Positions 2,093 through 58,336 of a DNA stretch of 64,000 bases are shown here, one piece after another (position 1 is the first letter of the stretch; each line of letters begins with the position of its first letter). This DNA comes from Candidatus Omnitrophota bacterium. Lineage in GTDB: Bacteria; Omnitrophota; Gorgyraeia; Zapsychrales; JAKLDJ01. The stretch lies in the NCBI GenBank assembly GCA_022703585.1, contig JAKLDJ010000005.1, positions 69,353-133,352 of the forward strand. The letters run 5' to 3'. The notes under the pieces were generated by a model. It was not told where the DNA came from. It searched no databases and saw only the letters and a list, made by a program, of their open reading frames with translations. The position numbers and the translations under genes were made by a program.

Positions 2093-2245
2093 AGGCGTTT
2101 TTGGCAAAAAAAACGCCTACTCGCTTAAATAAGTAGGCTCTCCGAACTCAACCGGCAACTGACTACCCGTCTCCGCATTAATCGGAGGTGTGGGCTCTAG
2201 AGTTTTGCGCCCCACGCTTTCGCGAGGTTTGCCCTTATCAATCGA
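2093..2245 (-). ncRNA. c-di-GMP-I (GEMM) riboswitch candidate: aptamer about 2135-2245 plus terminator expression platform about 2106-2138
   Basis: The minus-strand RNA reads ...AAGGGCAAACCUCGCGAAAGCGUGGGGCGCAAAACUCUAGAGCCCACACCUCCGAUUAAUGCGGAG... It contains GGGCAAACC, a GAAA tetraloop hairpin and a GGGNCGCAAA core that I recognise from the Vibrio Vc2 c-di-GMP-I aptamer (recalled from memory, not searched). It is followed by the hairpin GCCUACU..AGUAGGC plus U8. Confidence 0.6.
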
Positions 2246-2910: not shown

Positions 2911-4875
2911 TCAGAATGTCTCGATGCCATGTTCCTTTAGAACAATCAGAGTGCAGTCGTCATGCTGAGGGGCGCGGCCGATAAAAGAGCTGATTTCCTT
3001 GGTAACTTCCCTTATAAGCTGAGAAGCGCTGTCATTCTCGCAAGCGCGCATTACCGAAAATAGCCTCTCTTCGCCAAAATCCTCTCTTCGCAAATTCTTG
3101 GCTTCCACAACGCCATCCGTGTAGAGAATGACGGTATCCCCGGGATCCAAAACAGCTTCTCCTTGAGAAAATTCAACACTGTTGACAAGCCCCAGAGGGA
3201 GCCCTTCTTTCGGTTGTATCTTTTCTACGGTATGGTCCTTTTTTCTCAAAATCAACGTAGGGCAATGCCCGGCATTGGCCACTAAGATTTTATGTTCGGG
3301 AACAATATAAATGACATAGGTCGCGGTAACGAAAATACCCGGATTGGTATTTCTGACCATCTCTTCATTAAGTTGAAAAAGCAGGTCGCTAGGCTCATCG
3401 CAAATCCCGGCCAGCATGCGGAATAGCGAAATGGCCTTGGCCATGACCAGCGCCGCCGGTACGCCCTTGCCAGAAACATCCCCGATAAATACGCCCATCC
3501 GGTACTTGCCCAGGGCATACATATCGTAAAGATCGCCGCCGACATGCTTAGCCGTGACCATGCTGGTCGCGATCTCCAGGCTGCCGAACCGTTCAATGGG
3601 CGAAGGCAGAAAACTGTCCTGGATCGACTTGGCAATCGAGAGCTCTTTCTCGACGAGTTCGTGCTTTCTGTTTTCTTCTAAGAAGTTATAAATGCTCACA
3701 CCCGTATTCATAAAAATCATCATAATAAACGGGCAAAAGACATCAATCCAAATCCCCCTGGTCATAAAGATCCCGAATGCGAAAGAGACAAAGAGAAAAG
3801 AATATCCAACCGTATACGAAAAAGCGGCAATCGGCTGATTCCGCTTGCGAGACGTAGTCAGAAACACAATTCCCAGGAGAATAAAAAGAATAATCAAATT
3901 CGTCTTGGCGCTAACCCGATAGACATAACGATCCAGCAGGATACTGCTGAAAATATTTGCATGCAACCCCACCATCGGGTATTCCTTTTCCAAGGGAATC
4001 GCCTGCAAGTCCGAGGTGCCGGTAGCCGTCATGCCCACAAAACAAACCGCTCCCTTAAAATCATCCAACGGTACCCGGGGGGCCTTTTTTGCGGCCCTAT
4101 CCTGCCATGCCCCCAAAACATCCACATAAGAATAATGTTTAAACGTCTGGCGCCAGCGGCCGGCATAATTCACCAGCATCGCCCCGCTGGAAGAAGTCGG
4201 AATGGTAAGCCGCGGGCCGATGGAGACCGCGTTCCAGTGAAAAACAATATTTTCTAAAGGAATACCCAAATAATCGCAGGCCATACGTAAGGAAATATGG
4301 GGCTTAAGCTCACCGTTAAAATCGATAAACAGCGGCACCCAGCGATTCTTTCCATCCGCATCCCGATAACTATTGATATATCCGGTGGCCTTGGCGGCAT
4401 CGGCGAGTTTGGGTAAAATCGAAGCCGCCATCCCCTTGGCCTTGGGTAATTTCTTGGATTGAAGATCGCTTTCGATCCGAAGGACGTAGGGCAGGTAAAC
4501 ATTGCCGGCATCCTTAACCGAGGCGCTAAAGGCATCGTCCTCTTGTGTCGGATCCGTAAAAATAACATCGAACATCACCTGCTTGGTGCCTAAGGCCGAG
4601 AGGACATCAACGAGACTGGCGTGAAAATCGCGAGGCAAAGGCCAATAGCCCAGACTTTTTAAGGTGTCATCGGAGATTTCAATAAGGATAATTTTATCGG
4701 AGAAATTCTGGACCGGACGCAAGAAAAACCGCAGATCCAGCAAGATGTTTTCGTAAGAATCCAGCAGCCGCCAGGAAGAGGTAAGAACAACCAGGATCAG
4801 GACGAGACAGAAAAAAACAAGTTTGACAATGCGTCTTCGGAGGGATGCGTTAAACGGTAAGATTTTTGAAAACAT
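2911..4875 (-). CDS. CHASE2 sensor domain / PP2C-family (SpoIIE/RsbU-like) serine phosphatase
   Basis: 654 aa. The N-terminal ~300 aa look like a CHASE2 periplasmic sensor, followed by a hydrophobic TM block, then PP2C motifs (GDVSGKGVPAALVMA, DGVVEAKN). Confidence 0.8.
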   Translation of the reverse strand: MFSKILPFNASLRRRIVKLVFFCLVLILVVLTSSWRLLDSYENILLDLRFFLRPVQNFSDKIILIEISDDTLKSLGYWPLPRDFHASLVDVLSALGTKQVMFDVIFTDPTQEDDAFSASVKDAGNVYLPYVLRIESDLQSKKLPKAKGMAASILPKLADAAKATGYINSYRDADGKNRWVPLFIDFNGELKPHISLRMACDYLGIPLENIVFHWNAVSIGPRLTIPTSSSGAMLVNYAGRWRQTFKHYSYVDVLGAWQDRAAKKAPRVPLDDFKGAVCFVGMTATGTSDLQAIPLEKEYPMVGLHANIFSSILLDRYVYRVSAKTNLIILFILLGIVFLTTSRKRNQPIAAFSYTVGYSFLFVSFAFGIFMTRGIWIDVFCPFIMMIFMNTGVSIYNFLEENRKHELVEKELSIAKSIQDSFLPSPIERFGSLEIATSMVTAKHVGGDLYDMYALGKYRMGVFIGDVSGKGVPAALVMAKAISLFRMLAGICDEPSDLLFQLNEEMVRNTNPGIFVTATYVIYIVPEHKILVANAGHCPTLILRKKDHTVEKIQPKEGLPLGLVNSVEFSQGEAVLDPGDTVILYTDGVVEAKNLRREDFGEERLFSVMRACENDSASQLIREVTKEISSFIGRAPQHDDCTLIVLKEHGIETF

Positions 4876-4927: not shown

Positions 4928-5641
4928 TTATTTTATTGGCTTTTCTTTACCTTTATATAAAAGTTTCCAAGGATTGACCTTAACGTCAGCACTTAATTCT
5001 TCCAGATTCTTGCTGGTCGCATTTAAATTCGCCACAATCTCATCGATAGCCAAACGGTTGACCTTAAGCCGCTCATCAACATTGCCTGATATCGAAGAAA
5101 TATTCTTCATCGAAGTATTCATATTAGCGACGATATCATCGATCGCCTGGCTGTTAACCTTAAGCCGCTGGTTAATGTTTTCCGAAATCTCTTTTAAGCT
5201 GTCCGCAATCGCATCGCCTTTGGCCAGCAGGCGGTCAAAATCTATCGGCTCCTGCGCTTCAATCAAGGCATCCTGGGCTAAGAAATTTCCACCGGGGTTA
5301 CCGGCTGAAAGCTCGACATATTTCTCACCTAACATACCCATGATCTTTATAAATGCCTTGGCCCCTTCACGGATTTTGGCCTCTTCTTTAATCCATAGAG
5401 TCAACTCCATCTTGGTATCCTGGTCGTAAACAAGGCGAATATCCTTGACCGAGCCAACCTCCATACCGTTTAACCGTACGGGCGCGTTTTTTTCCAGGCC
5501 GTCAATACGATAGAAAGAAGTCTTTACCGTATAGCCCTGCTGGGTAAATTTGAAATTACCCACCTTGAAGGTTAAAAAAAGCAGCGCCGAAACCGCGATC
5601 GTTACCAGGATACCGATTTTTGCCTCATTTGTTAGCTTCAT
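4928..5641 (-). CDS. mlaD: MlaD (MCE-domain) phospholipid ABC transporter substrate-binding protein
   Basis: 237 aa with an N-terminal TM anchor, an MCE domain and a C-terminal coiled-coil repeat. It is adjacent to mlaF and mlaE. Confidence 0.8.
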   Translation of the reverse strand: MKLTNEAKIGILVTIAVSALLFLTFKVGNFKFTQQGYTVKTSFYRIDGLEKNAPVRLNGMEVGSVKDIRLVYDQDTKMELTLWIKEEAKIREGAKAFIKIMGMLGEKYVELSAGNPGGNFLAQDALIEAQEPIDFDRLLAKGDAIADSLKEISENINQRLKVNSQAIDDIVANMNTSMKNISSISGNVDERLKVNRLAIDEIVANLNATSKNLEELSADVKVNPWKLLYKGKEKPIK

Positions 5642-13276: not shown

Positions 13277-14464
13277 TTAAATCTTTACACCGGGGATATC
13301 ATCGATATTGAGGCGAACACGAATATCCTTGTAAATCTCCTCCAGATTGACGCTATGGGTAGGACGGCATAGCAGGTATCCTTGCCCGGCATCAACTCCG
13401 AGGTCAATTAAGATGTCCAAGTCTTCTTTTTGCTCGATGCCTTCGGCGATGGAGATAATATTATTTTCCTTGCAAAAAGAAACGATAAACTTGACCAAGC
13501 TGCGCCGGATAGGATCGTTCTTCAAGTTTTGGATCAGATGGATATCAATCTTGACGACTGAGGGCCTTATTTCGACAATCGATTCAAGGCTGGCATAGCC
13601 CCCACCGACATCATCGATCGCAATATCAAAACCATAGTTACGATAAAACCTTAGGCGTTCATAAAAAGAATTGTAATCAGATACCAGCGAACGTTCGGTT
13701 AATTCCAGGACGATATTCTTAGGATTAACGTTATTTTTATCAAAAATCGATTTGATCTTAAAGAATTTCGGGCTTTCGACAAAAAACGGATTACAGTTTA
13801 AGAATAATCTCGCCTCTTCGGAACAACGAGGCATGGATTCCAGGGCCTTTTGCCAGGAAATCATTTCAAGATCGCAATATAAGCCGAACCGTAGCGCGGC
13901 TTTAAACAGCAGCTCGGGATTGGACAATATGCTCTTGATAGGCGGCCGGCTTAGGGCTTCGAACCCGAATATCCTGAAGGGTTTAAGGAAAAATATCGGC
14001 TGATAAAAAGGAATGACCAACTCTTCTTTGACAATCTTTTTTAACTCAAGAATAACAACCTCATTATCGCTCGTTGACTCATCAAAGAATACGCTACGGC
14101 GCAGGACCGCCTCCATCCGCGCCAGCAACTCTTCATGATCAAAAGGCTTGGTCAAATAATCATCGGCCCCCAGATAAAGGCCTTCGATTTTGTCTTCAAA
14201 CAAATATTTTACGCTAACAATAATAATGGGGATATGGCGAGTGGTTTTTCCTTCGCGCAGGCGCCGGCAGACTTCGAAACCCTCAACGTCCGGGAGAATA
14301 AGATCCAATAAAATTAAATCCGGCTTGGTCATGGCTTTCTCTATAGCCGCCGAGCCGGAATCTGCAATGTCTACCTCATAGCCTCTGGTTTCCAATATGA
14401 GGGACATCATTTGGGCGATATTTCTTTCGTCATCAACGATAAGTACGCGTTTCTTGTTCGTCAT
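13277..14464 (-). CDS. Response regulator receiver + EAL domain protein (c-di-GMP phosphodiesterase)
   Basis: 395 aa. REC domain (VLIVDDE, phospho-acceptor in DLILPD) plus EAL motifs (FEALSRP, ELTERS, IAIDDVGGGYASL, IKIDIHLI, AEGIE). Confidence 0.85.
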   Translation of the reverse strand: MTNKKRVLIVDDERNIAQMMSLILETRGYEVDIADSGSAAIEKAMTKPDLILLDLILPDVEGFEVCRRLREGKTTRHIPIIIVSVKYLFEDKIEGLYLGADDYLTKPFDHEELLARMEAVLRRSVFFDESTSDNEVVILELKKIVKEELVIPFYQPIFFLKPFRIFGFEALSRPPIKSILSNPELLFKAALRFGLYCDLEMISWQKALESMPRCSEEARLFLNCNPFFVESPKFFKIKSIFDKNNVNPKNIVLELTERSLVSDYNSFYERLRFYRNYGFDIAIDDVGGGYASLESIVEIRPSVVKIDIHLIQNLKNDPIRRSLVKFIVSFCKENNIISIAEGIEQKEDLDILIDLGVDAGQGYLLCRPTHSVNLEEIYKDIRVRLNIDDIPGVKI

Positions 14465-50981: not shown

Positions 50982-51151
50982 TTAACAAGTTACCAACGTT
51001 ACAAATGTTACCAAAGTTAGAAAGGTTACCCAAAAAAGGTTTGTTGAGGTTACGCTAAGGTTTCCGCAACCTTTTTGTAACATCGCGCAACCTCTAAAAA
51101 GTAACCTCGGCAACCTTATTAACCTTTATAACCTTAGTAACCTGATATCTA
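50982..51151. repeat. Phased short-repeat array in the moeA-moaC spacer (GGTTAC/GTAACC-core, ~9-bp period)
   Basis: Forward strand: gttaccaac gttacaaat gttaccaaa gttagaaag gttacccaa ... ggttacg ... gtaacctcggc aaccttatt aacctttat aaccttagt aacctgat. There are 5+5 units with opposite polarity in the two halves. Confidence 0.6.
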
Positions 51152-54496: not shown

Positions 54497-55981
54497 TTAA
54501 AATTGAAAATAAATAAAAGGAATTTCTTTGCTCACCCCTAAATTCATCACCGTCCAGATACAGGCAAGATAAACGGCCCAGCGAAGAACAACCGGCCGCG
54601 CCGAAAAAAATGTTTGCAGCGTCTGCAGCTCTTGGGCAACATCATTTTGCGCGCATGAGGCCTCCTGGAACACCTGCAGGCCCAAGACTAAAAGGATCAA
54701 CCCGACGGAGAAAACAAATTCCCCCTGCGACAACCCGATCGCGCTTTCAATGCCATGCACCGACAACCCGCCCCATCCTGCGGTCAAATGCGAAAAGATA
54801 TACACCGCATCCCCCATACTGCTGGCCCGAAAGAACACCCACGCCGCGCAAACCAGAACAAAAACAATGATCCGGCGCAAAAATCGGTGCACCGCCGGCT
54901 GCCGCTCCAATCCCAAAATTTGCACCGCGCCCGCCCTTATTCCCCGGCTCCATCGGGAAATAAGATAATACAATCCGTGCAACCCGCCCCAGACTAAAAA
55001 AGTCCAATTAGCGCCATGCCACAAACCGCTTAAAAGAAACGTTACCATAATATTGACGTGCCAGCCCCAGGCCGAAACCCGGCTGCCGCCCAGAGAAATA
55101 TAAACGTAATCCCGAAACCAGGTGGATAAAGAAATATGCCAGCGGTGCCAAAAATCCGCAATCGATTCCGCCAGATACGGCCGGCGGAAATTTTGCATAA
55201 GCCTGAATCCTAAAACCTGTGCCGCACCGATAGCAATATCGGAATAGCCGGCAAAATCACAATAGATCTGAAACGCAAAAAATACCGTGGCAATGACCAA
55301 AGCCGGGCCCTGATGCTCGGAAAGATTGCCGTACACTTGATTGACCGCCAAAGCCAGGCGGTCGGCGATGACCACTTTCTGGAACATGCCCCAGAGCATT
55401 AGTTTTAGCCCTTGGGTCACCCGGGTATAATCAAAATCGTGGCGCTCGTCAAACTGGGGCAAAAGATGTTTAGCCCTTTCAATGGGCCCGGCAACCAATT
55501 GCGGAAAAAACATGACGTACAAAGCATAGATCCCAAAACGGCGTTCTGCTTTAAAATGGCGGCGGTAAACTTCGATGACATAATTTAAACTCTGGAAGGT
55601 ATGAAAGGACAGGCCAATCGGCAAGATGAGCCCTAAGGTTTCCGGCTTATAATTCCAATGCAACAGTTCCGCCAGTCGCGCCAAATTGGCATTAAAGAAA
55701 TTAAAATATTTAAAGACAAATAAAACCGCGCAGGTGGCAACGATACTCACCAAAAGGTATACCCGGCGCGCCCTCCCTTCGGCCCGCTCGATTAACAGTG
55801 CCGCCGTGTAATCGATGACGATGAGGATAAAAAGGACCAAAATATAGACCGGAATAAAGGCCATGTAAAAGACGCAGCTGGCAACCAAGAGCCACAGCCA
55901 GCGCCAACGGTAGGGCAAAACAAAATGTATAGAGGCAACGATGGGGAAAAAAATCAGGAATTGAAGCGAATTAAAGGTCAC
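54497..55981 (-). CDS. MBOAT family membrane O-acyltransferase (AlgI/PatA/DltB-like)
   Basis: 494 aa, polytopic. The conserved His block LSGLWHGANWTFLVWGGLHG is present. Confidence 0.85.
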   Translation of the reverse strand: MTFNSLQFLIFFPIVASIHFVLPYRWRWLWLLVASCVFYMAFIPVYILVLFILIVIDYTAALLIERAEGRARRVYLLVSIVATCAVLFVFKYFNFFNANLARLAELLHWNYKPETLGLILPIGLSFHTFQSLNYVIEVYRRHFKAERRFGIYALYVMFFPQLVAGPIERAKHLLPQFDERHDFDYTRVTQGLKLMLWGMFQKVVIADRLALAVNQVYGNLSEHQGPALVIATVFFAFQIYCDFAGYSDIAIGAAQVLGFRLMQNFRRPYLAESIADFWHRWHISLSTWFRDYVYISLGGSRVSAWGWHVNIMVTFLLSGLWHGANWTFLVWGGLHGLYYLISRWSRGIRAGAVQILGLERQPAVHRFLRRIIVFVLVCAAWVFFRASSMGDAVYIFSHLTAGWGGLSVHGIESAIGLSQGEFVFSVGLILLVLGLQVFQEASCAQNDVAQELQTLQTFFSARPVVLRWAVYLACIWTVMNLGVSKEIPFIYFQF

Positions 55982-56147
55982 GGGATTTGATGGCTGAATG
56001 TTTCGCTAGGGTTTTGGGAATAATCTTTTTTTAGTGCAGGGCTATTATATTACATTTGCTCCTTGAGGCAAGAACTTTTGGCCCAAAGCGGGACAATCCC
56101 TTCGAATTTCGCACAGAGCAATCAGTGGCATGCGACGAGCGACTAAT

Positions 56148-56218
56148 CTTGCGACTTGCGTCTTGTGTCTTGTGACTTGCAACTTGTGTCTTGCGACTTG
56201 TGACTTGTGCCTTGCACC
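56148..56218. repeat. Degenerate heptanucleotide tandem array (TTGYGNC x10; GTCACAA-type on minus strand)
   Basis: cttgcgac ttgcgtc ttgtgtc ttgtgac ttgcaac ttgtgtc ttgcgac ttgtgac ttgtgcc ttgcacc. The same heptad recurs at about 56950-56985 and about 58285-58310. Confidence 0.7.
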
Positions 56219-56224
56219 TATTCA

Positions 56225-56370
56225 CTATTCACCCGTCTCGTCCCGCATTAGCGGGACGGACGAGGTCTCGTCATCCCGCAAACGGCGGGATGACGGACTA
56301 TTCACCCGTCTCGTCCCGCATTAGCGGGACGGACGAGGTCTCGTCATCCCGCAAACGGCGGGATGACGGA
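56225..56370. repeat. Two exact tandem copies of a 73-bp unit, each encoding two GC-rich hairpins
   Basis: The unit is ctattcacccgtctcgtcccgcattagcgggacggacgaggtctcgtcatcccgcaaacggcgggatgacgga. The hairpins are CGTCCCGC-ATTA-GCGGGACG and GTCATCCCGC-AAACG-GCGGGATGAC. The unit is flanked by TATTCAC heptads. Confidence 0.85.
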
Positions 56371-56413
56371 CTATTCACCATTCACTATTCACTAAAATCT
56401 TCTTGGGCTAAGA

Positions 56414-56917
56414 TCACTTTTTCTTCTTTTTACTTACCGTCTTCTTTCCTGCGGCCGGTTTCTTGGTTGCAGCCGGCTTCTTCTTTTCTTTCTCGATTGG
56501 CTCCAAAACATCGACGGCAGCCTTCACAATTGTTTGAGCAGGCGGCGCCCCTTGAGGCCTGTGATCGGCGGCCACTTTAAAATTGTTATTGGCCTTACGC
56601 CGCGAAAAACATTCTTTGCAAAAGACCGGCCGGTCTCCGCTGGGCTTAAAAGGCAATTCGCATTCCTTCTTGCAATCGGCGCATACGGCACGAAACATCG
56701 GCCGCTCTTTGTGATGATCCCTTGGCTTTTCATTTCCCTGATGCCGGCCACTCACCGGTAGATAAAATGGCGTCTTGGGCGCAGATCCCGGCCCCGCCGG
56801 CTGCTGTGTGGACCGGTTGAGCAAAAGGTCCACCTTCTTATCCAGCGCCGTCAACTGCTCTTGCATTTTAGTTATTAGGCCGACGATGTCGGGTTCATTG
56901 GGAATCTGTTTTTTCAT
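56414..56917 (-). CDS. Zinc-ribbon (CxxC-x17-CxxC) protein with lysine-rich histone-H1-like C-terminal tail
   Basis: 167 aa: a short N-terminal coiled coil, CADCKKECELPFKPSGDRPVFCKEC, and the tail KKKPAATKKPAAGKKTVSKKKKK. A perfect SD (AAGGAGGAG) precedes the ATG. Confidence 0.6.
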   Translation of the reverse strand: MKKQIPNEPDIVGLITKMQEQLTALDKKVDLLLNRSTQQPAGPGSAPKTPFYLPVSGRHQGNEKPRDHHKERPMFRAVCADCKKECELPFKPSGDRPVFCKECFSRRKANNNFKVAADHRPQGAPPAQTIVKAAVDVLEPIEKEKKKPAATKKPAAGKKTVSKKKKK

Positions 56918-57013
56918 GCTCCTCCTTAAGTGGTTTTGAGTGTCTTGCTACTTGTGACTTGTGACTTGTGACTTGTAACTTCGCCTCAAGGGCTTTTGGG
57001 GACCTGGTCCTGA
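56850..57013. repeat. Direct repeat copy A (promoter / 5' end of the zinc-ribbon gene), about 150 bp, duplicated at 58185..58336
   Basis: Near-identical blocks: ccgacgatgtcgggttcatt...ctgttttttcatgctcctccttaagtggtttt..gtgtcttg..ac.tgtgacttgtaac...aagggcttttgggacctggtc.tgag. Confidence 0.75.
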
Positions 57014-57488: not shown

Positions 57489-58009
57489 AAAACAATTCCC
57501 TTTTTAATTTCTTCATAGAAAACCGGCTCTTTTTTGTCAAAGCCCATATATTCTTGCGGGCTCTTAACAACAAGTTGGATCTTTTCTTTTAACCGTGGCT
57601 GGGATAAGACGAGCGCCCGCACCTTTTCCTTATCGTTTGATACCACAAAAATATCGATATCGCTTTTTTCGGTATCTTCGCCTAACGCACAGCTGCCAAA
57701 AAGAACAGCACGCTGTGATAGGCCCTTCACCTGTTCAACCAAGGGCTCCAGCATGCTGACATTCTTCAGGATCTTATACTGCCGGACAGTCGCTGATTTC
57801 GGGTCAACGCTGTAAAAGATCATCCGCCCTTTTTGTTCCGTCTTAAGCAAACCCTCTTTGGCCATCTGACGCAAGGCCTGATTGGTCCCGCCCTTGCTTA
57901 AAAGCGTATGCAAGGCAATTTCTGCCCCGTAAAAGGACACGTGAGGATTCCGGCAGAGAAAGTCCAGAATCTTTTGCTCGGCTGTGGATGAAAATCTGTC
58001 TTTTTTCAT
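57473..58009 (-). CDS. Minimal nucleotidyltransferase (MNT) with N-terminal winged helix (putative antitoxin)
   Basis: Nucleotidyltransferase motif LFGSCALGEDTEKSDIDIFVV (GS...DxD). An N-terminal wHTH-like region is present. Confidence 0.75.
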   Translation of the reverse strand: MKKDRFSSTAEQKILDFLCRNPHVSFYGAEIALHTLLSKGGTNQALRQMAKEGLLKTEQKGRMIFYSVDPKSATVRQYKILKNVSMLEPLVEQVKGLSQRAVLFGSCALGEDTEKSDIDIFVVSNDKEKVRALVLSQPRLKEKIQLVVKSPQEYMGFDKKEPVFYEEIKKGIVLWEKE

Positions 58010-58068
58010 ACGTTTAACCCGCTCATTCTACCTCTTTCATGCGTTTAGCCCGCTCATTCTGTCTCTAG
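58003..58068. repeat. Tandem ~31-bp direct repeat spanning the MNT start codon
   Basis: ttcatacgtttaacccgctcattctacctct | ttcatgcgtttagcccgctcattctgtctct. Confidence 0.5.
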
Positions 58069-58184: not shown

Positions 58185-58336
58185 TTCCTGCTGCTCCTGC
58201 ATTTTGGTCATTAATCCGACGATGTCGGGTTCATTAGAAAGCTGTTTTTTCATGCTCCTCCTTAAGTGGTTTTTGGGTGTCTTGTAACCTGTGACTTGTA
58301 ACTGCGCCTTAAGGGCTTTTGGGACCTGGTCTTGAG
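58185..58336. repeat. Direct repeat copy B, including a truncated duplicate of the zinc-ribbon gene 5' end
   Basis: See copy A. The minus strand encodes MKKQLSNEPDIVGLMTKMQEQQE-stop, against MKKQIPNEPDIVGLITKMQEQLTA... in the intact gene. Confidence 0.75.
58188..58253 (-). pseudogene. 5' gene fragment (first ~22 codons) of a zinc-ribbon/H1-like paralogue, with its own SD
   Basis: As above. An in-frame stop follows codon 23. An SD AAGGAGGAG is present. Confidence 0.5.

What the first reader, a model, noticed from the sequence alone, without database searches (positions are those of the whole stretch)
55982..56413. Repeat-dense 430-bp region upstream of the MBOAT O-acyltransferase: 10x degenerate heptamer array plus two exact 73-bp double-hairpin units
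Reading the minus strand, after the zinc-ribbon gene stop come TGAATAG heptads. Next are two identical 73-bp units, each folding into two GC-rich hairpins that share a TCCCGC/GCGGGA core (10-bp and 8-bp stems). Then come (GTCRCAA)x10, then about 150 nt to the MBOAT ATG. The exact duplication of the 73-bp unit suggests recent slippage or recombination. The heptamer array has a 7-bp period, which is not helical phasing and is more typical of microsatellites. It is too degenerate for efficient slipped-strand mispairing. The same GTCACAA heptads recur in the promoters of the zinc-ribbon gene and its duplicated fragment, which suggests a shared regulator. Candidate roles include tandem attenuators or terminators, protein-binding arrays, a structured sRNA, or a copy-number-variable element controlling envelope O-acetylation.
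Basis: seen in the sequence. Interest (0 to 1): 0.65.

Follow-up and report, generated by a model that had tools for sequence, protein, structure and literature searches.

The report
Heptad repeats with nested double-hairpin element
The spacer between two genes of an uncultured Omnitrophota bacterium is built from common 7-base tandem repeats with a small GC-rich double-hairpin element nested in them and recently duplicated; it is a real but fairly ordinary kind of bacterial repeat DNA, with no sign that it controls the neighbouring acyltransferase gene.

Summary
On the minus strand, 56148-56391 reads (TGAATRG)x3, a 66-bp double-hairpin element, TGAATAG, an identical element, (TGAATAG)x2, then (NYRCAAG)x10. 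The "73-bp unit" is the element plus one heptad, so the element sits inside a heptad array.

- **Heptads:** both units are widespread simple repeats, with at least 120 metagenome and 109 viral stretches holding three units.
- **"Shared promoter heptads":** one of the two extra arrays is part of a 133-bp segmental duplication. Zinc-ribbon orthologs at 57-65% identity lack the arrays.
- **MBOAT control:** the gene has its own sigma-70-like promoter downstream of all repeats. MBOAT loci in relatives lack the spacer.
- **Copy number:** one assembly has one copy and others have two, but all flanks are 100% identical, so assembly collapse cannot be excluded.
- **Hairpin family:** a PVC-group relative (Auribacterota) carries three 51-57-nt double-hairpin inserts at tRNA T-loop sites, in both orientations. 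Their first hairpin begins with nearly the same 12 bases, and one lies beside TGAATRG heptads.

Best reading: a miniature palindromic insertion element nested in a heptanucleotide repeat and duplicated by slippage or unequal exchange. It probably acts only as a 3'-end hairpin for the zinc-ribbon transcript. It is a new member of known kinds, of modest interest.

The parts
56148..56217 (-). CAAG is invariant and the first three positions vary.
   Evidence: TRF period 7, 9.7 copies. The per-column count shows all 12 substitutions in 3 columns, P about 6e-5.
56218..56231 (-). (TGAATAG)x2, the promoter-proximal end of the interrupted TGAATRG array.
56232..56297 (-). 66-bp double-hairpin element, the copy nearer MBOAT: TCCGTCATCCCGCCGTTTGCGGGATGACGAGACCTCGTCCGTCCCGCTAATGCGGGACGAGACGGG.
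   Evidence: Exact match coordinates. Folds as two hairpins at -48.3 kcal/mol.
56298..56304 (-). Single TGAATAG heptad between the two element copies. Element plus this heptad makes the 73-bp unit.
56305..56370 (-). 66-bp double-hairpin element, the copy nearer the zinc-ribbon gene, 100% identical to the other copy. One of the two units is absent from assembly L004.
56371..56391 (-). TGAATAG TGAATGG TGAATAG, the gene-proximal end of the TGAATRG array. It begins 22 nt after the zinc-ribbon stop codon (TGA, 56414-56416).
56044..56071 (-). Sigma-70-like promoter match (TTGCCT, 16 nt, TATAAT; 10 of 12) for the MBOAT operon, downstream of all repeats.
   Evidence: This is a consensus match only; no transcription data exist.
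56414..56917 (-). Zinc-ribbon (CxxC-x17-CxxC, PF23477) gene with a lysine-rich tail. The repeats lie in its 3' flank.
   Evidence: NCBI labels the identical protein Candidatus Omnitrophota bacterium.
56945..56981 (-). (GTYACAA/TCACAAG)x5 array immediately upstream of the zinc-ribbon ribosome-binding site. It has the same CAAG-core unit as the 10-unit array.
54497..55981 (-). MBOAT O-acyltransferase gene (GTG start). It is a downstream neighbour, not shown to be regulated by the repeats.

Best explanation
The region is a composite, non-coding spacer built in three layers.

1. **Heptad arrays.** Two heptanucleotide simple-sequence arrays, (TGAATRG)n and (NYRCAAG)n, belong to a repeat type found in intergenic DNA of many bacteria and phages. 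They grow and shrink by replication slippage.
2. **Nested element.** A 66-bp GC-rich double-hairpin element sits at a unit boundary inside the TGAATRG array. It belongs to a family of miniature palindromic (REP/MITE-like) elements seen in PVC-group bacteria.
3. **Recent duplication.** Slippage or unequal exchange between the identical TGAATAG units on either side duplicated element plus heptad, giving the two exact 73-bp units.

Functionally, the hairpins lie about 45 nt past the zinc-ribbon stop codon. They most likely serve as that transcript's 3'-end, terminator-like or stabilising structure, and as an insulator from the MBOAT operon, which starts from its own promoter downstream of the repeats.

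Shown: the anatomy, the ubiquity of the heptads, the related elements in another phylum, and the lack of conservation at orthologous loci. Inferred: that the element arrived by insertion, the duplication mechanism, and the 3'-end role.
For: **Anatomy**
- The element is bounded by whole TGAATAG units on both sides in both copies. Removing it would leave an uninterrupted 5-unit array.
- The two units are 100% identical.

**The heptads are a general repeat class**
- (TCACAAG)x3 occurs in at least 120 metagenome stretches (scan truncated), from contigs of 30-70% GC.
- (TGAATRG)x3 occurs in 109 viral stretches.
- PMC4692102 reports that heptameric repeats are over-represented in bacterial intergenic DNA, including heterogeneous units with conserved and variable positions.
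- Omnitrophota-like relatives L125 and L126 have 7-10-nt arrays and GC palindromes in many intergenic regions. One intergenic region differs completely between strains that are 99.6-99.8% identical, with a palindromic element in one and heptads in the other.

**The hairpin has relatives**
- L050 (Auribacterota, PVC group) has three 51-57-nt double-hairpin inserts exactly between GGGTTC and GAATCCC of tRNA-Ser-derived T arms.
- They occur in both orientations, and their first hairpin starts TC(C/A)GTCATCCCG as ours does. One is followed by TGAATGG TGAATAG.

**Function**
- No T-tract follows the hairpins, but canonical terminators are not enriched here. Other long 3' gaps in the window also carry strong hairpins without T-tracts.
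- The MBOAT promoter-like site lies downstream of the repeats.
- The spacer is absent from MBOAT loci and zinc-ribbon loci of relatives.
Against: - No second locus carrying this exact element was found. The other 64 kb of the window has none at up to 3 mismatches. The metagenome scan with the inter-hairpin junction found nothing, although that collection evidently lacks this organism. A protein search with the read-through ORF found no hits, and plasmid and phage searches found none.
- No empty-site allele is available, so insertion as opposed to in-situ origin is not shown.
- No transposase or RAYT was found in the window ORFs scanned or next to the L050 cluster.
- The GTCATCCCGC palindrome core occurs in many unrelated phyla, so similarity of that core alone is weak evidence of kinship.
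- The strict CAAG invariance is not typical of this heptad class elsewhere. It hints at a local constraint that this explanation does not account for.
- No expression data exist.
Confidence: 0.5

Rival explanations
1. Regulatory array. The heptads are multimeric binding sites on DNA or RNA for a regulator, possibly the adjacent basic-tailed zinc-ribbon protein acting on its own 5' leader and 3' flank. Alternatively a ring-shaped RNA-binding protein of the HutP/TRAP type reads NAG triplets spaced 7 nt apart. Binding would modulate termination at the hairpins and so read-through into the MBOAT operon.
For: - CAAG is invariant in 10 of 10 units while the other three positions vary (P about 6e-5). 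This is not a general property of the heptad class.
- Both arrays share an NAG-N4 period (TGAA-TAG and NYRC-AAG) and they flank the hairpins.
- The same CAAG-core units sit just upstream of the zinc-ribbon ribosome-binding site.
- Ortholog L129 keeps two CACAAG units in the same 5' position.
- HutP sites being three UAG triplets with 4-nt spacers flanking a terminator is recalled from the literature, not checked here.
Against: - Three of four zinc-ribbon ortholog loci lack the heptads, and all four lack the hairpins.
- MBOAT loci in relatives lack the spacer.
- MBOAT has its own promoter-like site downstream of the repeats.
- Identical heptad arrays occur in hundreds of unrelated contexts without gene-orientation bias.
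- No HutP/TRAP-like domain appeared in the ORFs scanned.
Confidence: 0.12
2. REP/REPIN system. The element is a repetitive extragenic palindrome doublet, present in many copies genome-wide and mobilised by a RAYT (Y1 transposase) encoded elsewhere in the genome.
For: - It is short, extragenic, GC-rich and palindromic, and it occurs as a doublet. A forced single long hairpin is also stable at -40.4 kcal/mol.
- Tandem REP clusters are known (PMC3116915).
- The same core palindrome forms a clear multi-copy REP-type family in another MAG, with about 25 copies in CBFDBV01 contigs.
- The L050 relatives insert without an obvious target duplication at a fixed short target, as IS200/IS605-type Y1 transposition does. 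That last point is from established knowledge, not tested here.
Against: - There is no other copy in 64 kb, where typical REP densities would predict several.
- The two-hairpin fold (-48.3) is more stable than the long hairpin. Both hairpins carry their bulged A on the 3' arm, which suggests direct rather than inverted orientation.
- No Y1_Tnp domain was found near the locus, in 20 further window ORFs, or beside the L050 cluster.
Confidence: 0.15
3. Purely local, neutral slippage product. The hairpins arose in place, for example from the gene's original terminator duplicated once into two diverged hairpins and then again as the 73-bp unit. Nothing here is mobile or functional beyond an ordinary terminator.
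For: - Duplications are nested at 7, about 33, 73 and 133 bp scales in a 2.3-kb stretch.
- The two hairpins of one element are paralogous, with the same core, the same bulge side and a compensated 3-bp difference on both arms.
- No dispersed copy was found.
Against: - Near-identical first-hairpin sequence, over 12 consecutive bases and both stem arms, recurs in three mobile-looking inserts next to the same TGAATRG heptads in a different phylum.
- The element boundaries coincide exactly with heptad unit boundaries.
Confidence: 0.2
4. Contingency (phase-variable) locus. Changes in repeat number switch expression of the MBOAT O-acyltransferase and so vary the cell envelope.
For: - One assembly (L004) has one 73-bp unit and the others have two.
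- The repeats lie upstream of a surface-modification gene.
Against: - The heptad arrays are identical in all six assemblies.
- The repeats lie upstream of the -35 box, not between the promoter hexamers or inside an ORF.
- A 73-bp change there has no obvious effect on the promoter.
- The one-copy contig may be an assembly collapse, since the flanks are 100% identical.
Confidence: 0.04

Closest known systems
Heptanucleotide simple-sequence repeats in bacterial intergenic DNA, such as cyanobacterial STRR and the Xanthomonas/Nostoc heptamer arrays
   Same: - Tandem 7-nt units lie in intergenic regions at several loci per genome.
- Units are heterogeneous, with some positions conserved and others free.
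- Arrays sometimes occur as inverted pairs.
- Function is unknown, and slippage is the presumed origin (PMC4692102).
- Our two unit types are themselves widespread.
   Different: - The unit sequences differ: TGAATRG and NYRCAAG here, against the G-rich GGGAATC and GGGGAYT studied there. Ours cannot form G-quadruplexes.
- The host is an Omnitrophota MAG.
- CAAG invariance here is stricter than in the same unit elsewhere.
REP elements and REPINs mobilised by RAYT transposases
   Same: A short GC-rich extragenic palindrome occurring as a doublet, with higher-order tandem arrangement and a position in the 3' flank of a gene (PMC3116915).
   Different: - Only one locus was seen in 64 kb.
- The hairpins appear to be in direct orientation, and the two-hairpin fold is the more stable one.
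- No RAYT was found in the sequence available.
Small dispersed repeats (SDR) of Nostoc punctiforme (Elhai et al. 2008; cited as ref. 43 in PMC3116915; details recalled from memory because the paper is not held)
   Same: Very small hairpin-forming mobile elements without their own transposase, reported to lie nested within tandem heptameric repeats.
   Different: - SDRs are 21-27 nt, cyanobacterial and present in many copies.
- This element is 66 nt, a double hairpin, in a PVC-group bacterium, and its dispersal is unproven.
- I could not read the source to test the comparison.
Double-hairpin inserts in tRNA-Ser-derived T arms of Candidatus Tritonobacter lacicola
   Same: - The first hairpin begins TC(C/A)GTCATCCCG and ends CGGGATG(A/C)C(G/T)GA, as ours does.
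- A second GC-rich hairpin follows directly.
- One copy lies 22 nt from TGAATGG TGAATAG heptads.
   Different: - The second hairpin is unrelated (TGCGGCACC..GGTGACGCA).
- The length is 51-57 nt.
- The target is the centre of the T-loop, TTC^GAA, not a heptad boundary.
- Copies occur in both orientations.
Intrinsic (Rho-independent) terminators
   Same: Strong GC-rich stem-loops shortly after a stop codon, on the transcribed strand.
   Different: No U-tract follows either hairpin, and the terminator scan does not call them. There are four hairpins in tandem rather than one.

Membership tests
Heptanucleotide SSR (STRR-like) | Head-to-tail 7-nt units, at least 3 copies, non-coding | tested here: met
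   TRF finds period-7 arrays of 9.7, 3.6, 2.1 and 4.6 copies, all in intergenic DNA.
Heptanucleotide SSR (STRR-like) | The same unit recurs at several loci and in other genomes | tested here: met
   There are 3 loci in the window, one of them made by duplication. Elsewhere there are at least 120 metagenome and 109 viral stretches.
Heptanucleotide SSR (STRR-like) | Unit number varies between strains | tested here: not met
   The heptad arrays are identical in all six same-species assemblies, which are clonal. Arrays do differ between the related strains L125 and L126.
REP/REPIN | Short extragenic imperfect palindrome | tested here: met
REP/REPIN | Many dispersed copies in the genome | tested here: inconclusive
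   There are none elsewhere in the 64-kb window. The rest of the genome could not be searched: the genome scan was truncated and the metagenome collection lacks the organism.
REP/REPIN | Two REPs in inverted orientation forming one long hairpin | tested here: not met
   The MFE is two separate hairpins at -48.3, against -40.4 kcal/mol for the forced long hairpin. The bulged A is on the 3' arm of both hairpins. Sequence alignment cannot settle orientation, scoring 17 direct against 21 inverted.
REP/REPIN | Cognate RAYT (Y1 transposase) gene, usually flanked by REPs | tested here: inconclusive
   None was found in the 20-kb gene table, in 28 window ORFs or in L050. Most of the genome was not seen.
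MITE | Terminal inverted repeats | tested here: met
   The element's ends, TCCGTC...GACGGG, are complementary (sequence).
MITE | Target-site duplication | tested here: inconclusive
   TGAATAG flanks both sides, but the element sits in an array of that unit, so duplication cannot be told apart from the pre-existing repeat. The L050 relatives show no duplication.
MITE | Presence/absence polymorphism or multiple insertion sites | tested here: inconclusive
   One copy against two at this locus may be an artefact. Related elements sit at three sites in L050.
Intrinsic terminator | GC-rich stem-loop followed by a U-tract | tested here: not met
   The stems are present, but the tails are GAGACC and GGGTGAATAG. 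The scan does not call them.
Phase-variation contingency locus | Repeat within an ORF or between the -35 and -10 boxes, with unit-number changes that alter expression | tested here: not met
   The repeats lie upstream of the -35 match and the heptad number is invariant across assemblies.
Known RNA families (Rfam) | Match at or above a family's gathering score | tested here: not met
   Only sub-threshold matches were found, such as Termite-flg at 25.6 bits against 40 and Mcr7 at 22 against 380.
HutP/TRAP-type RNA-binding site | NAG triplets at regular spacing flanking a terminator hairpin | tested here: met
   TGAA-TAG and NYRC-AAG both give an NAG-N4 period on either side of the hairpins. The site definition is recalled from memory.
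HutP/TRAP-type RNA-binding site | Cognate ring-forming RNA-binding protein encoded nearby | tested here: inconclusive
   No such domain appeared in the ORFs scanned. The whole genome was not available.

The most novel reading that the evidence does not exclude
PVC-group bacteria (Omnitrophota and Auribacterota) may share an undescribed family of 50-66-nt double-hairpin mobile elements that carry no gene and have no identified transposase. These would home to very short specific targets: the centre of the tRNA T-loop (TTC^GAA) in Tritonobacter, and a TGAATAG unit boundary here. Their insertion and excision could be one way heptad arrays are seeded or expanded. The locally invariant CAAG core would then mark a second, protein- or RNA-level constraint still to be explained.
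Probability: 0.2. Interest if true: 0.6.

Novelty: new member of a known kind. Interest (0 to 1): 0.3.

Why it matters
As it stands this is a well-documented example, in a poorly studied candidate phylum, of two known kinds of bacterial repeat DNA nested in each other. It warns against reading regulatory meaning into heptad arrays that turn out to be ubiquitous.

If the link to the Tritonobacter T-loop inserts is real, it points to a family of ultra-small, target-specific mobile hairpins in PVC bacteria whose mobilising enzyme is unknown. It also points to a possible mechanistic connection between such elements and heptanucleotide repeats. The literature I could read says the excess of those repeats in bacterial intergenic DNA has been noted but not explained (PMC4692102).

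Tried and rejected
1. **Genome-collection scan** with the hairpin-1 core (GTCATCCCGC-N3-7-GCGGGATGAC). The core is too common to be diagnostic.
2. **Metagenome scan** with the 25-nt inter-hairpin junction. It gave 0 hits even though the sequence exists in a JGI sample, so that collection lacks this organism.
3. **Protein search** with the spurious + strand ORF that reads through both copies, used as a trick to find other copies. No hits.
4. **blastn** of the region against plasmids and phages. No match.
5. **Rfam** at gathering and E-value thresholds. Nothing credible.
6. **Viral scan** for the extended hairpin. 0 hits.
7. **Enrichment of perfect GC hairpins** next to TCACAAG arrays. The result was 11 of 120 against 6 of 142 controls, which is not convincing. 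No nested hairpins were found in 109 viral TGAATRG arrays.
8. **Gene-orientation bias** of TCACAAG arrays. None was seen, and the analysis is crude because the unit has no stop codons on its own strand.
9. **CAAG-core invariance as a general property.** Rejected, because substitutions in 375 flanking units are spread over all positions.
10. **Integron attC, CRISPR, riboswitch or attenuator for MBOAT.** Rejected on anatomy: no RYYYAAC/GTTRRRY cores, only two copies with a 7-bp spacer, and a promoter downstream of the repeats.
11. **Contig breaks in L003 and L128 as evidence of population heterogeneity.** Rejected, because the overlaps (55 and 83 nt) are what the tandem repeat itself produces.
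12. **Elhai et al. 2008.** Could not be retrieved by DOI, PubMed id or a guessed PMC id. One literature search was wasted on the prefix "STRR".
Full report
**1. The observation**

Reading the minus strand from the zinc-ribbon stop codon (TGA, 56414-56416), the sequence runs as follows:
- 22 nt of unique sequence
- TGAATAG TGAATGG TGAATAG (56391-56371)
- a 66-bp element (56370-56305)
- TGAATAG (56304-56298)
- an identical 66-bp element (56297-56232)
- TGAATAG TGAATAG (56231-56218)
- ten units of NYRCAAG (56217-56148)
- 166 nt of unique sequence up to the GTG start of the MBOAT gene at 55981

Tandem Repeats Finder gives period 73, 2.1 copies and 100% identity, plus the period-7 arrays. Motif counts exceed shuffled expectation by more than 20-fold. 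Each element folds into two hairpins with stems of 11+3 and 8+4 bp. Each hairpin has a single bulged A on its 3' arm and the shared TCCCGC/GCGGGA top. The fold energy is -48.3 kcal/mol per element, and the 281-nt region has z = -10.5.

The key refinement is that the 73-bp unit equals the 66-bp element plus one heptad. The element interrupts a TGAATRG array exactly at unit boundaries.

**2. Host and neighbourhood**

The zinc-ribbon protein (PF23477, CxxC-x17-CxxC, lysine-rich tail) is labelled by NCBI as from a Candidatus Omnitrophota bacterium. The nearest MBOAT homologs outside the species are only 65% identical and are also labelled Omnitrophica/Omnitrophota.

The window is 46% GC. Upstream of the locus on the transcribed strand lie a nucleotidyltransferase/HEPN pair, a HAD hydrolase, DUF6941, a type III restriction-modification pair and a Fic/RhuM gene. 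Downstream lie MBOAT, its 332-aa partner, a DPBB-domain protein, DUF4412, and MoeA and MoaC.

**3. Same locus in other assemblies**

Six assemblies of the same species were recovered (L001-L004, L127, L128).
- All are 100% identical to the window in the flanks, over as much as 19.5 kb.
- The window, L001 and L002/L127 have two units. L004 has one. L003 ends, and L128 begins, inside the repeat.
- The terminal overlaps (55 nt in L003, 83 nt in L128) are what a tandem repeat produces in a de Bruijn assembly.

Because there are no SNPs to show that L004 is a different strain, its single copy may be a collapse. Copy-number heterogeneity is therefore possible but not shown. The heptad arrays are invariant across all six assemblies.

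**4. Is it conserved where the genes are conserved?**

It is not.
- MBOAT loci at 64-65% identity (L124-L126) keep MBOAT and the 326-332-aa partner gene. They have different upstream genes and short spacers of 38-187 nt without these repeats.
- Zinc-ribbon orthologs at 57-65% identity (L129-L132) lack the hairpins. They also lack heptad arrays, except that L129 has GGTCACAAGAGCACAAG right after a TATAAT box in the equivalent 5' position.
It is a copy, not independent evidence.
- A TTGCCT-16-TATAAT site at 56071-56044 (10 of 12 matches) lies between the repeats and MBOAT.

Together these results argue against a conserved regulatory role for either gene.

**5. The heptads are a general repeat class**

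Three perfect TCACAAG units occur in at least 120 metagenome stretches (scan truncated) from contigs of 30-70% GC. Arrays there reach up to 24 units. TGAATRG x3 occurs in 109 viral-contig stretches.

In 11 of 120 cases a second, inverted array follows, as (TCACAAG)n, a loop, then (CTTGTGA)n. The reverse order was never seen. These pairs would form long hairpins resembling bidirectional terminators. No bias relative to neighbouring gene orientation was seen, although the analysis was crude.

The Omnitrophota-like relatives L125 and L126 carry 7-10-nt arrays in many intergenic regions, each with its own core: AAAGTCAC, GGTGACCA, CCCAGNNN, AGCTNNN, AGTATCG and TTAGTTTCCA. They also carry GC palindromes. 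One intergenic region is entirely different between the two strains although the flanks are 99.6-99.8% identical. One strain has a double palindrome (CTCAACACCCGGTGTT TAA ACACCGGGTGTTGAG) and the other has AATTTCA heptads.

The literature I could read states that heptameric repeats are over-represented in bacterial intergenic DNA. It also notes that units can be heterogeneous with fixed and free positions, that inverted arrangements occur, and that no function is established (PMC4692102).

Within the window, short-period arrays are confined to intergenic DNA between 50.9 and 58.3 kb. They include 9-nt GGTTAC arrays in inverted orientation between MoeA and MoaC.

**6. One local peculiarity**

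In the 10-unit array, CAAG never varies, while 12 substitutions fall in the other three positions (P about 6e-5 after allowing for all seven registers). All variants at positions 2-3 are CG, TG or CA, that is, transitions around a CpG.

In 375 non-selected flanking units from the metagenome arrays, substitutions are spread over all positions, and only position 6 is somewhat protected. The invariance is therefore local. It may reflect a constraint, or descent by higher-order duplication: TRF scores period 21 at 85% against 78% for period 7. I leave this unexplained.

Both arrays share an NAG-N4 period on the transcribed strand. From memory, that is the spacing of HutP sites around the Bacillus hut terminator. 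I found no HutP-like protein in the sequence available, and I treat this only as a lead.

**7. The hairpin element**

Nothing else in the 64-kb window resembles either hairpin at up to 3 mismatches, apart from one weak chance-level match. The core palindrome GTCATCCCGC..GCGGGATGAC is common across phyla, with more than 119 hits. In one MAG it forms an obvious REP-type family (GGGGACAGTCATCCCGC...; about 25 contigs). The core by itself therefore says little.

The informative hit is L050, from Candidatus Tritonobacter lacicola (phylum Auribacterota, PVC group). There, three 51-57-nt inserts lie exactly between GGGTTC and GAATCCC of tRNA-Ser-derived T arms. The intact tRNA-Ser genes in the same locus read GGGTTCGAATCCC.
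- Each insert is a double hairpin.
- One hairpin starts TC(C/A)GTCATCCCG and ends CGGGATG(A/C)C(G/T)GA. This is the same 12-nt start and the same stem as our hairpin 1.
- The other hairpin is TGCGGCACC..GGTGACGCA.
- The inserts occur in both orientations.
- One is followed, after the tRNA 3' end and CAAATACAG, by TGAATGG TGAATAG TGAAAAG. A second tRNA-end remnant in the locus is followed by TGAATAG TGAAATG TGAATGG TGAATAG.

TGAATRG dimers were otherwise found only in one other of the roughly 250 loci then held. This co-occurrence of hairpin type and heptad type in a second PVC phylum is the best evidence that our element belongs to a family of small insertion elements rather than being a local invention.

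No RAYT or other transposase lies near the L050 cluster, whose neighbours are gyrA, serS, a methyltransferase and unannotated small ORFs. None was found among 28 window ORFs scanned or in the 20-kb gene table.

**8. REPIN test**

REPINs are inverted REP doublets that fold into one long hairpin and are tied to a RAYT (PMC3116915). Here the two-hairpin fold (-48.3) beats the forced long hairpin (-40.4 kcal/mol). Both hairpins carry the bulged A on the 3' arm, which favours direct orientation. Sequence alignment cannot decide, scoring 17 direct against 21 inverted. Dispersal and the presence of a RAYT could not be tested genome-wide. I therefore do not file the element as a REPIN, though it may work like one.

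**9. Likely function**

The hairpins start about 45 nt after the stop codon, on the transcribed strand, with no other structure in between. They have no U-tract and are not called by the terminator scan.

Canonical terminators are not enriched in this region: 7 were found against 5.7 expected. The other long 3' gaps in the window, after MoaC, MoeA and the subtilase-like gene, also carry strong hairpins without T-tracts.

The most economical reading is that the element acts as a 3'-end-forming or stabilising hairpin for the zinc-ribbon mRNA, and as an insulator from the MBOAT operon. The duplication would add nothing essential. This is an inference, and no expression data were available.

**10. 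Verdict**

The mechanistic ideas about a shared regulator and control of O-acetylation are not supported. The region is best seen as a miniature palindromic element nested in a ubiquitous type of heptanucleotide repeat and recently duplicated through the flanking heptads.

It is a new member of known kinds, and I score interest at 0.3. The most novel reading that survives is a PVC-wide family of target-specific double-hairpin mobile elements linked to heptad arrays. I give it a probability of about 0.2.

Noticed in passing
L050 (Candidatus Tritonobacter lacicola), + coordinates 3364-3434, 4154-4218, 4972-5036: Three 51-57-nt double-hairpin inserts lie exactly between GGGTTC and GAATCCC of partial tRNA-Ser copies, in two orientations and with no obvious target duplication. 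The intact tRNA-Ser genes nearby read GGGTTCGAATCCC. This looks like a tiny element that targets the palindromic T-loop centre TTC^GAA. No transposase is nearby.
   Followed up: partly
window 56855-57000 and 58191-58323 (minus strand): A roughly 133-bp, 88-90% identical duplication of the zinc-ribbon gene's upstream region, heptads and first ~25 codons brackets the nucleotidyltransferase/HEPN toxin-antitoxin cassette. That cassette has its own strong promoter match (TTGACA-17-TATAGT, 58159-58131). The upstream copy would encode only a 23-aa peptide. It looks like a cassette insertion with a long target duplication.
   Followed up: partly
window 58004-58065: A 31-bp unit (TTTCATACGTTTAACCCGCTCATTCTACCTC on the + strand) is tandemly duplicated at 87% identity right at the start of the nucleotidyltransferase gene. 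The start-codon region is therefore present twice.
   Followed up: no
window 50982-51151 (minus strand, MoeA-MoaC spacer): 9-nt arrays built on GGTTAC on one side and its complement GTAACC on the other surround a -20.7 kcal/mol hairpin. This is an inverted-array architecture like the inverted heptad pairs seen in metagenomes.
   Followed up: partly
L136, L139, L159, L161, L168, L183, L187, L195, L198, L201, L218: (TCACAAG)n arrays are paired with a downstream inverted (CTTGTGA)n array in 11 of 120 loci. The opposite order never occurs (0 of 120). This gives long hairpins with an A-rich 5' arm and a U-rich 3' arm on both strands, like bidirectional terminators made of heptads.
   Followed up: partly
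L125 8754-8883 against L126 5867-5915: Two strains that are 99.6-99.8% identical differ completely in one intergenic region. One strain has a 130-nt segment with two copies of a double palindrome (AACACCCGGTGTT TAA ACACCGGGTGTT). The other has a 49-nt AATTTCA heptad array.
   Followed up: partly
L174 1608-1635 and L181: Four TCACAAG units lie inside what looks like a radA/sms coding sequence, just after its zinc-finger motif. They would encode a VTSHKSQ repeat, so the heptad array can sit in frame-tolerant coding linkers.
   Followed up: no
L143, L160, L229, L232, L245: A REP-like palindrome (AAGGCGAC..GTCGCCTT, followed by a second palindrome resembling enterobacterial REPs) lies directly after long TCACAAG arrays. 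In L143 and L160 it lies before inverted CTTGTAA arrays. This is another case of palindromic elements nested between heptad arrays.
   Followed up: no
window 2151-2243 (minus strand): A c-di-GMP-I riboswitch (57 bits, gathering score 35) lies upstream of a subtilase-family peptidase gene (1229-1984). An EAL/receiver-domain protein is encoded at 13277-14464.
   Followed up: no
protein list: Most homologs of the zinc-ribbon protein sit on very short contigs, with a median of roughly 1-3 kb. This suggests the gene family often lies next to sequence that breaks assemblies, or that it belongs to low-coverage organisms.
   Followed up: no
L073 1-49 (Gemmatimonadales MAG): The contig starts with (CCATTCA)x7, the complement of TGAATGG, and also carries the GTCATCCCGC hairpin core 4.4 kb away. 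This is probably coincidence.
   Followed up: no
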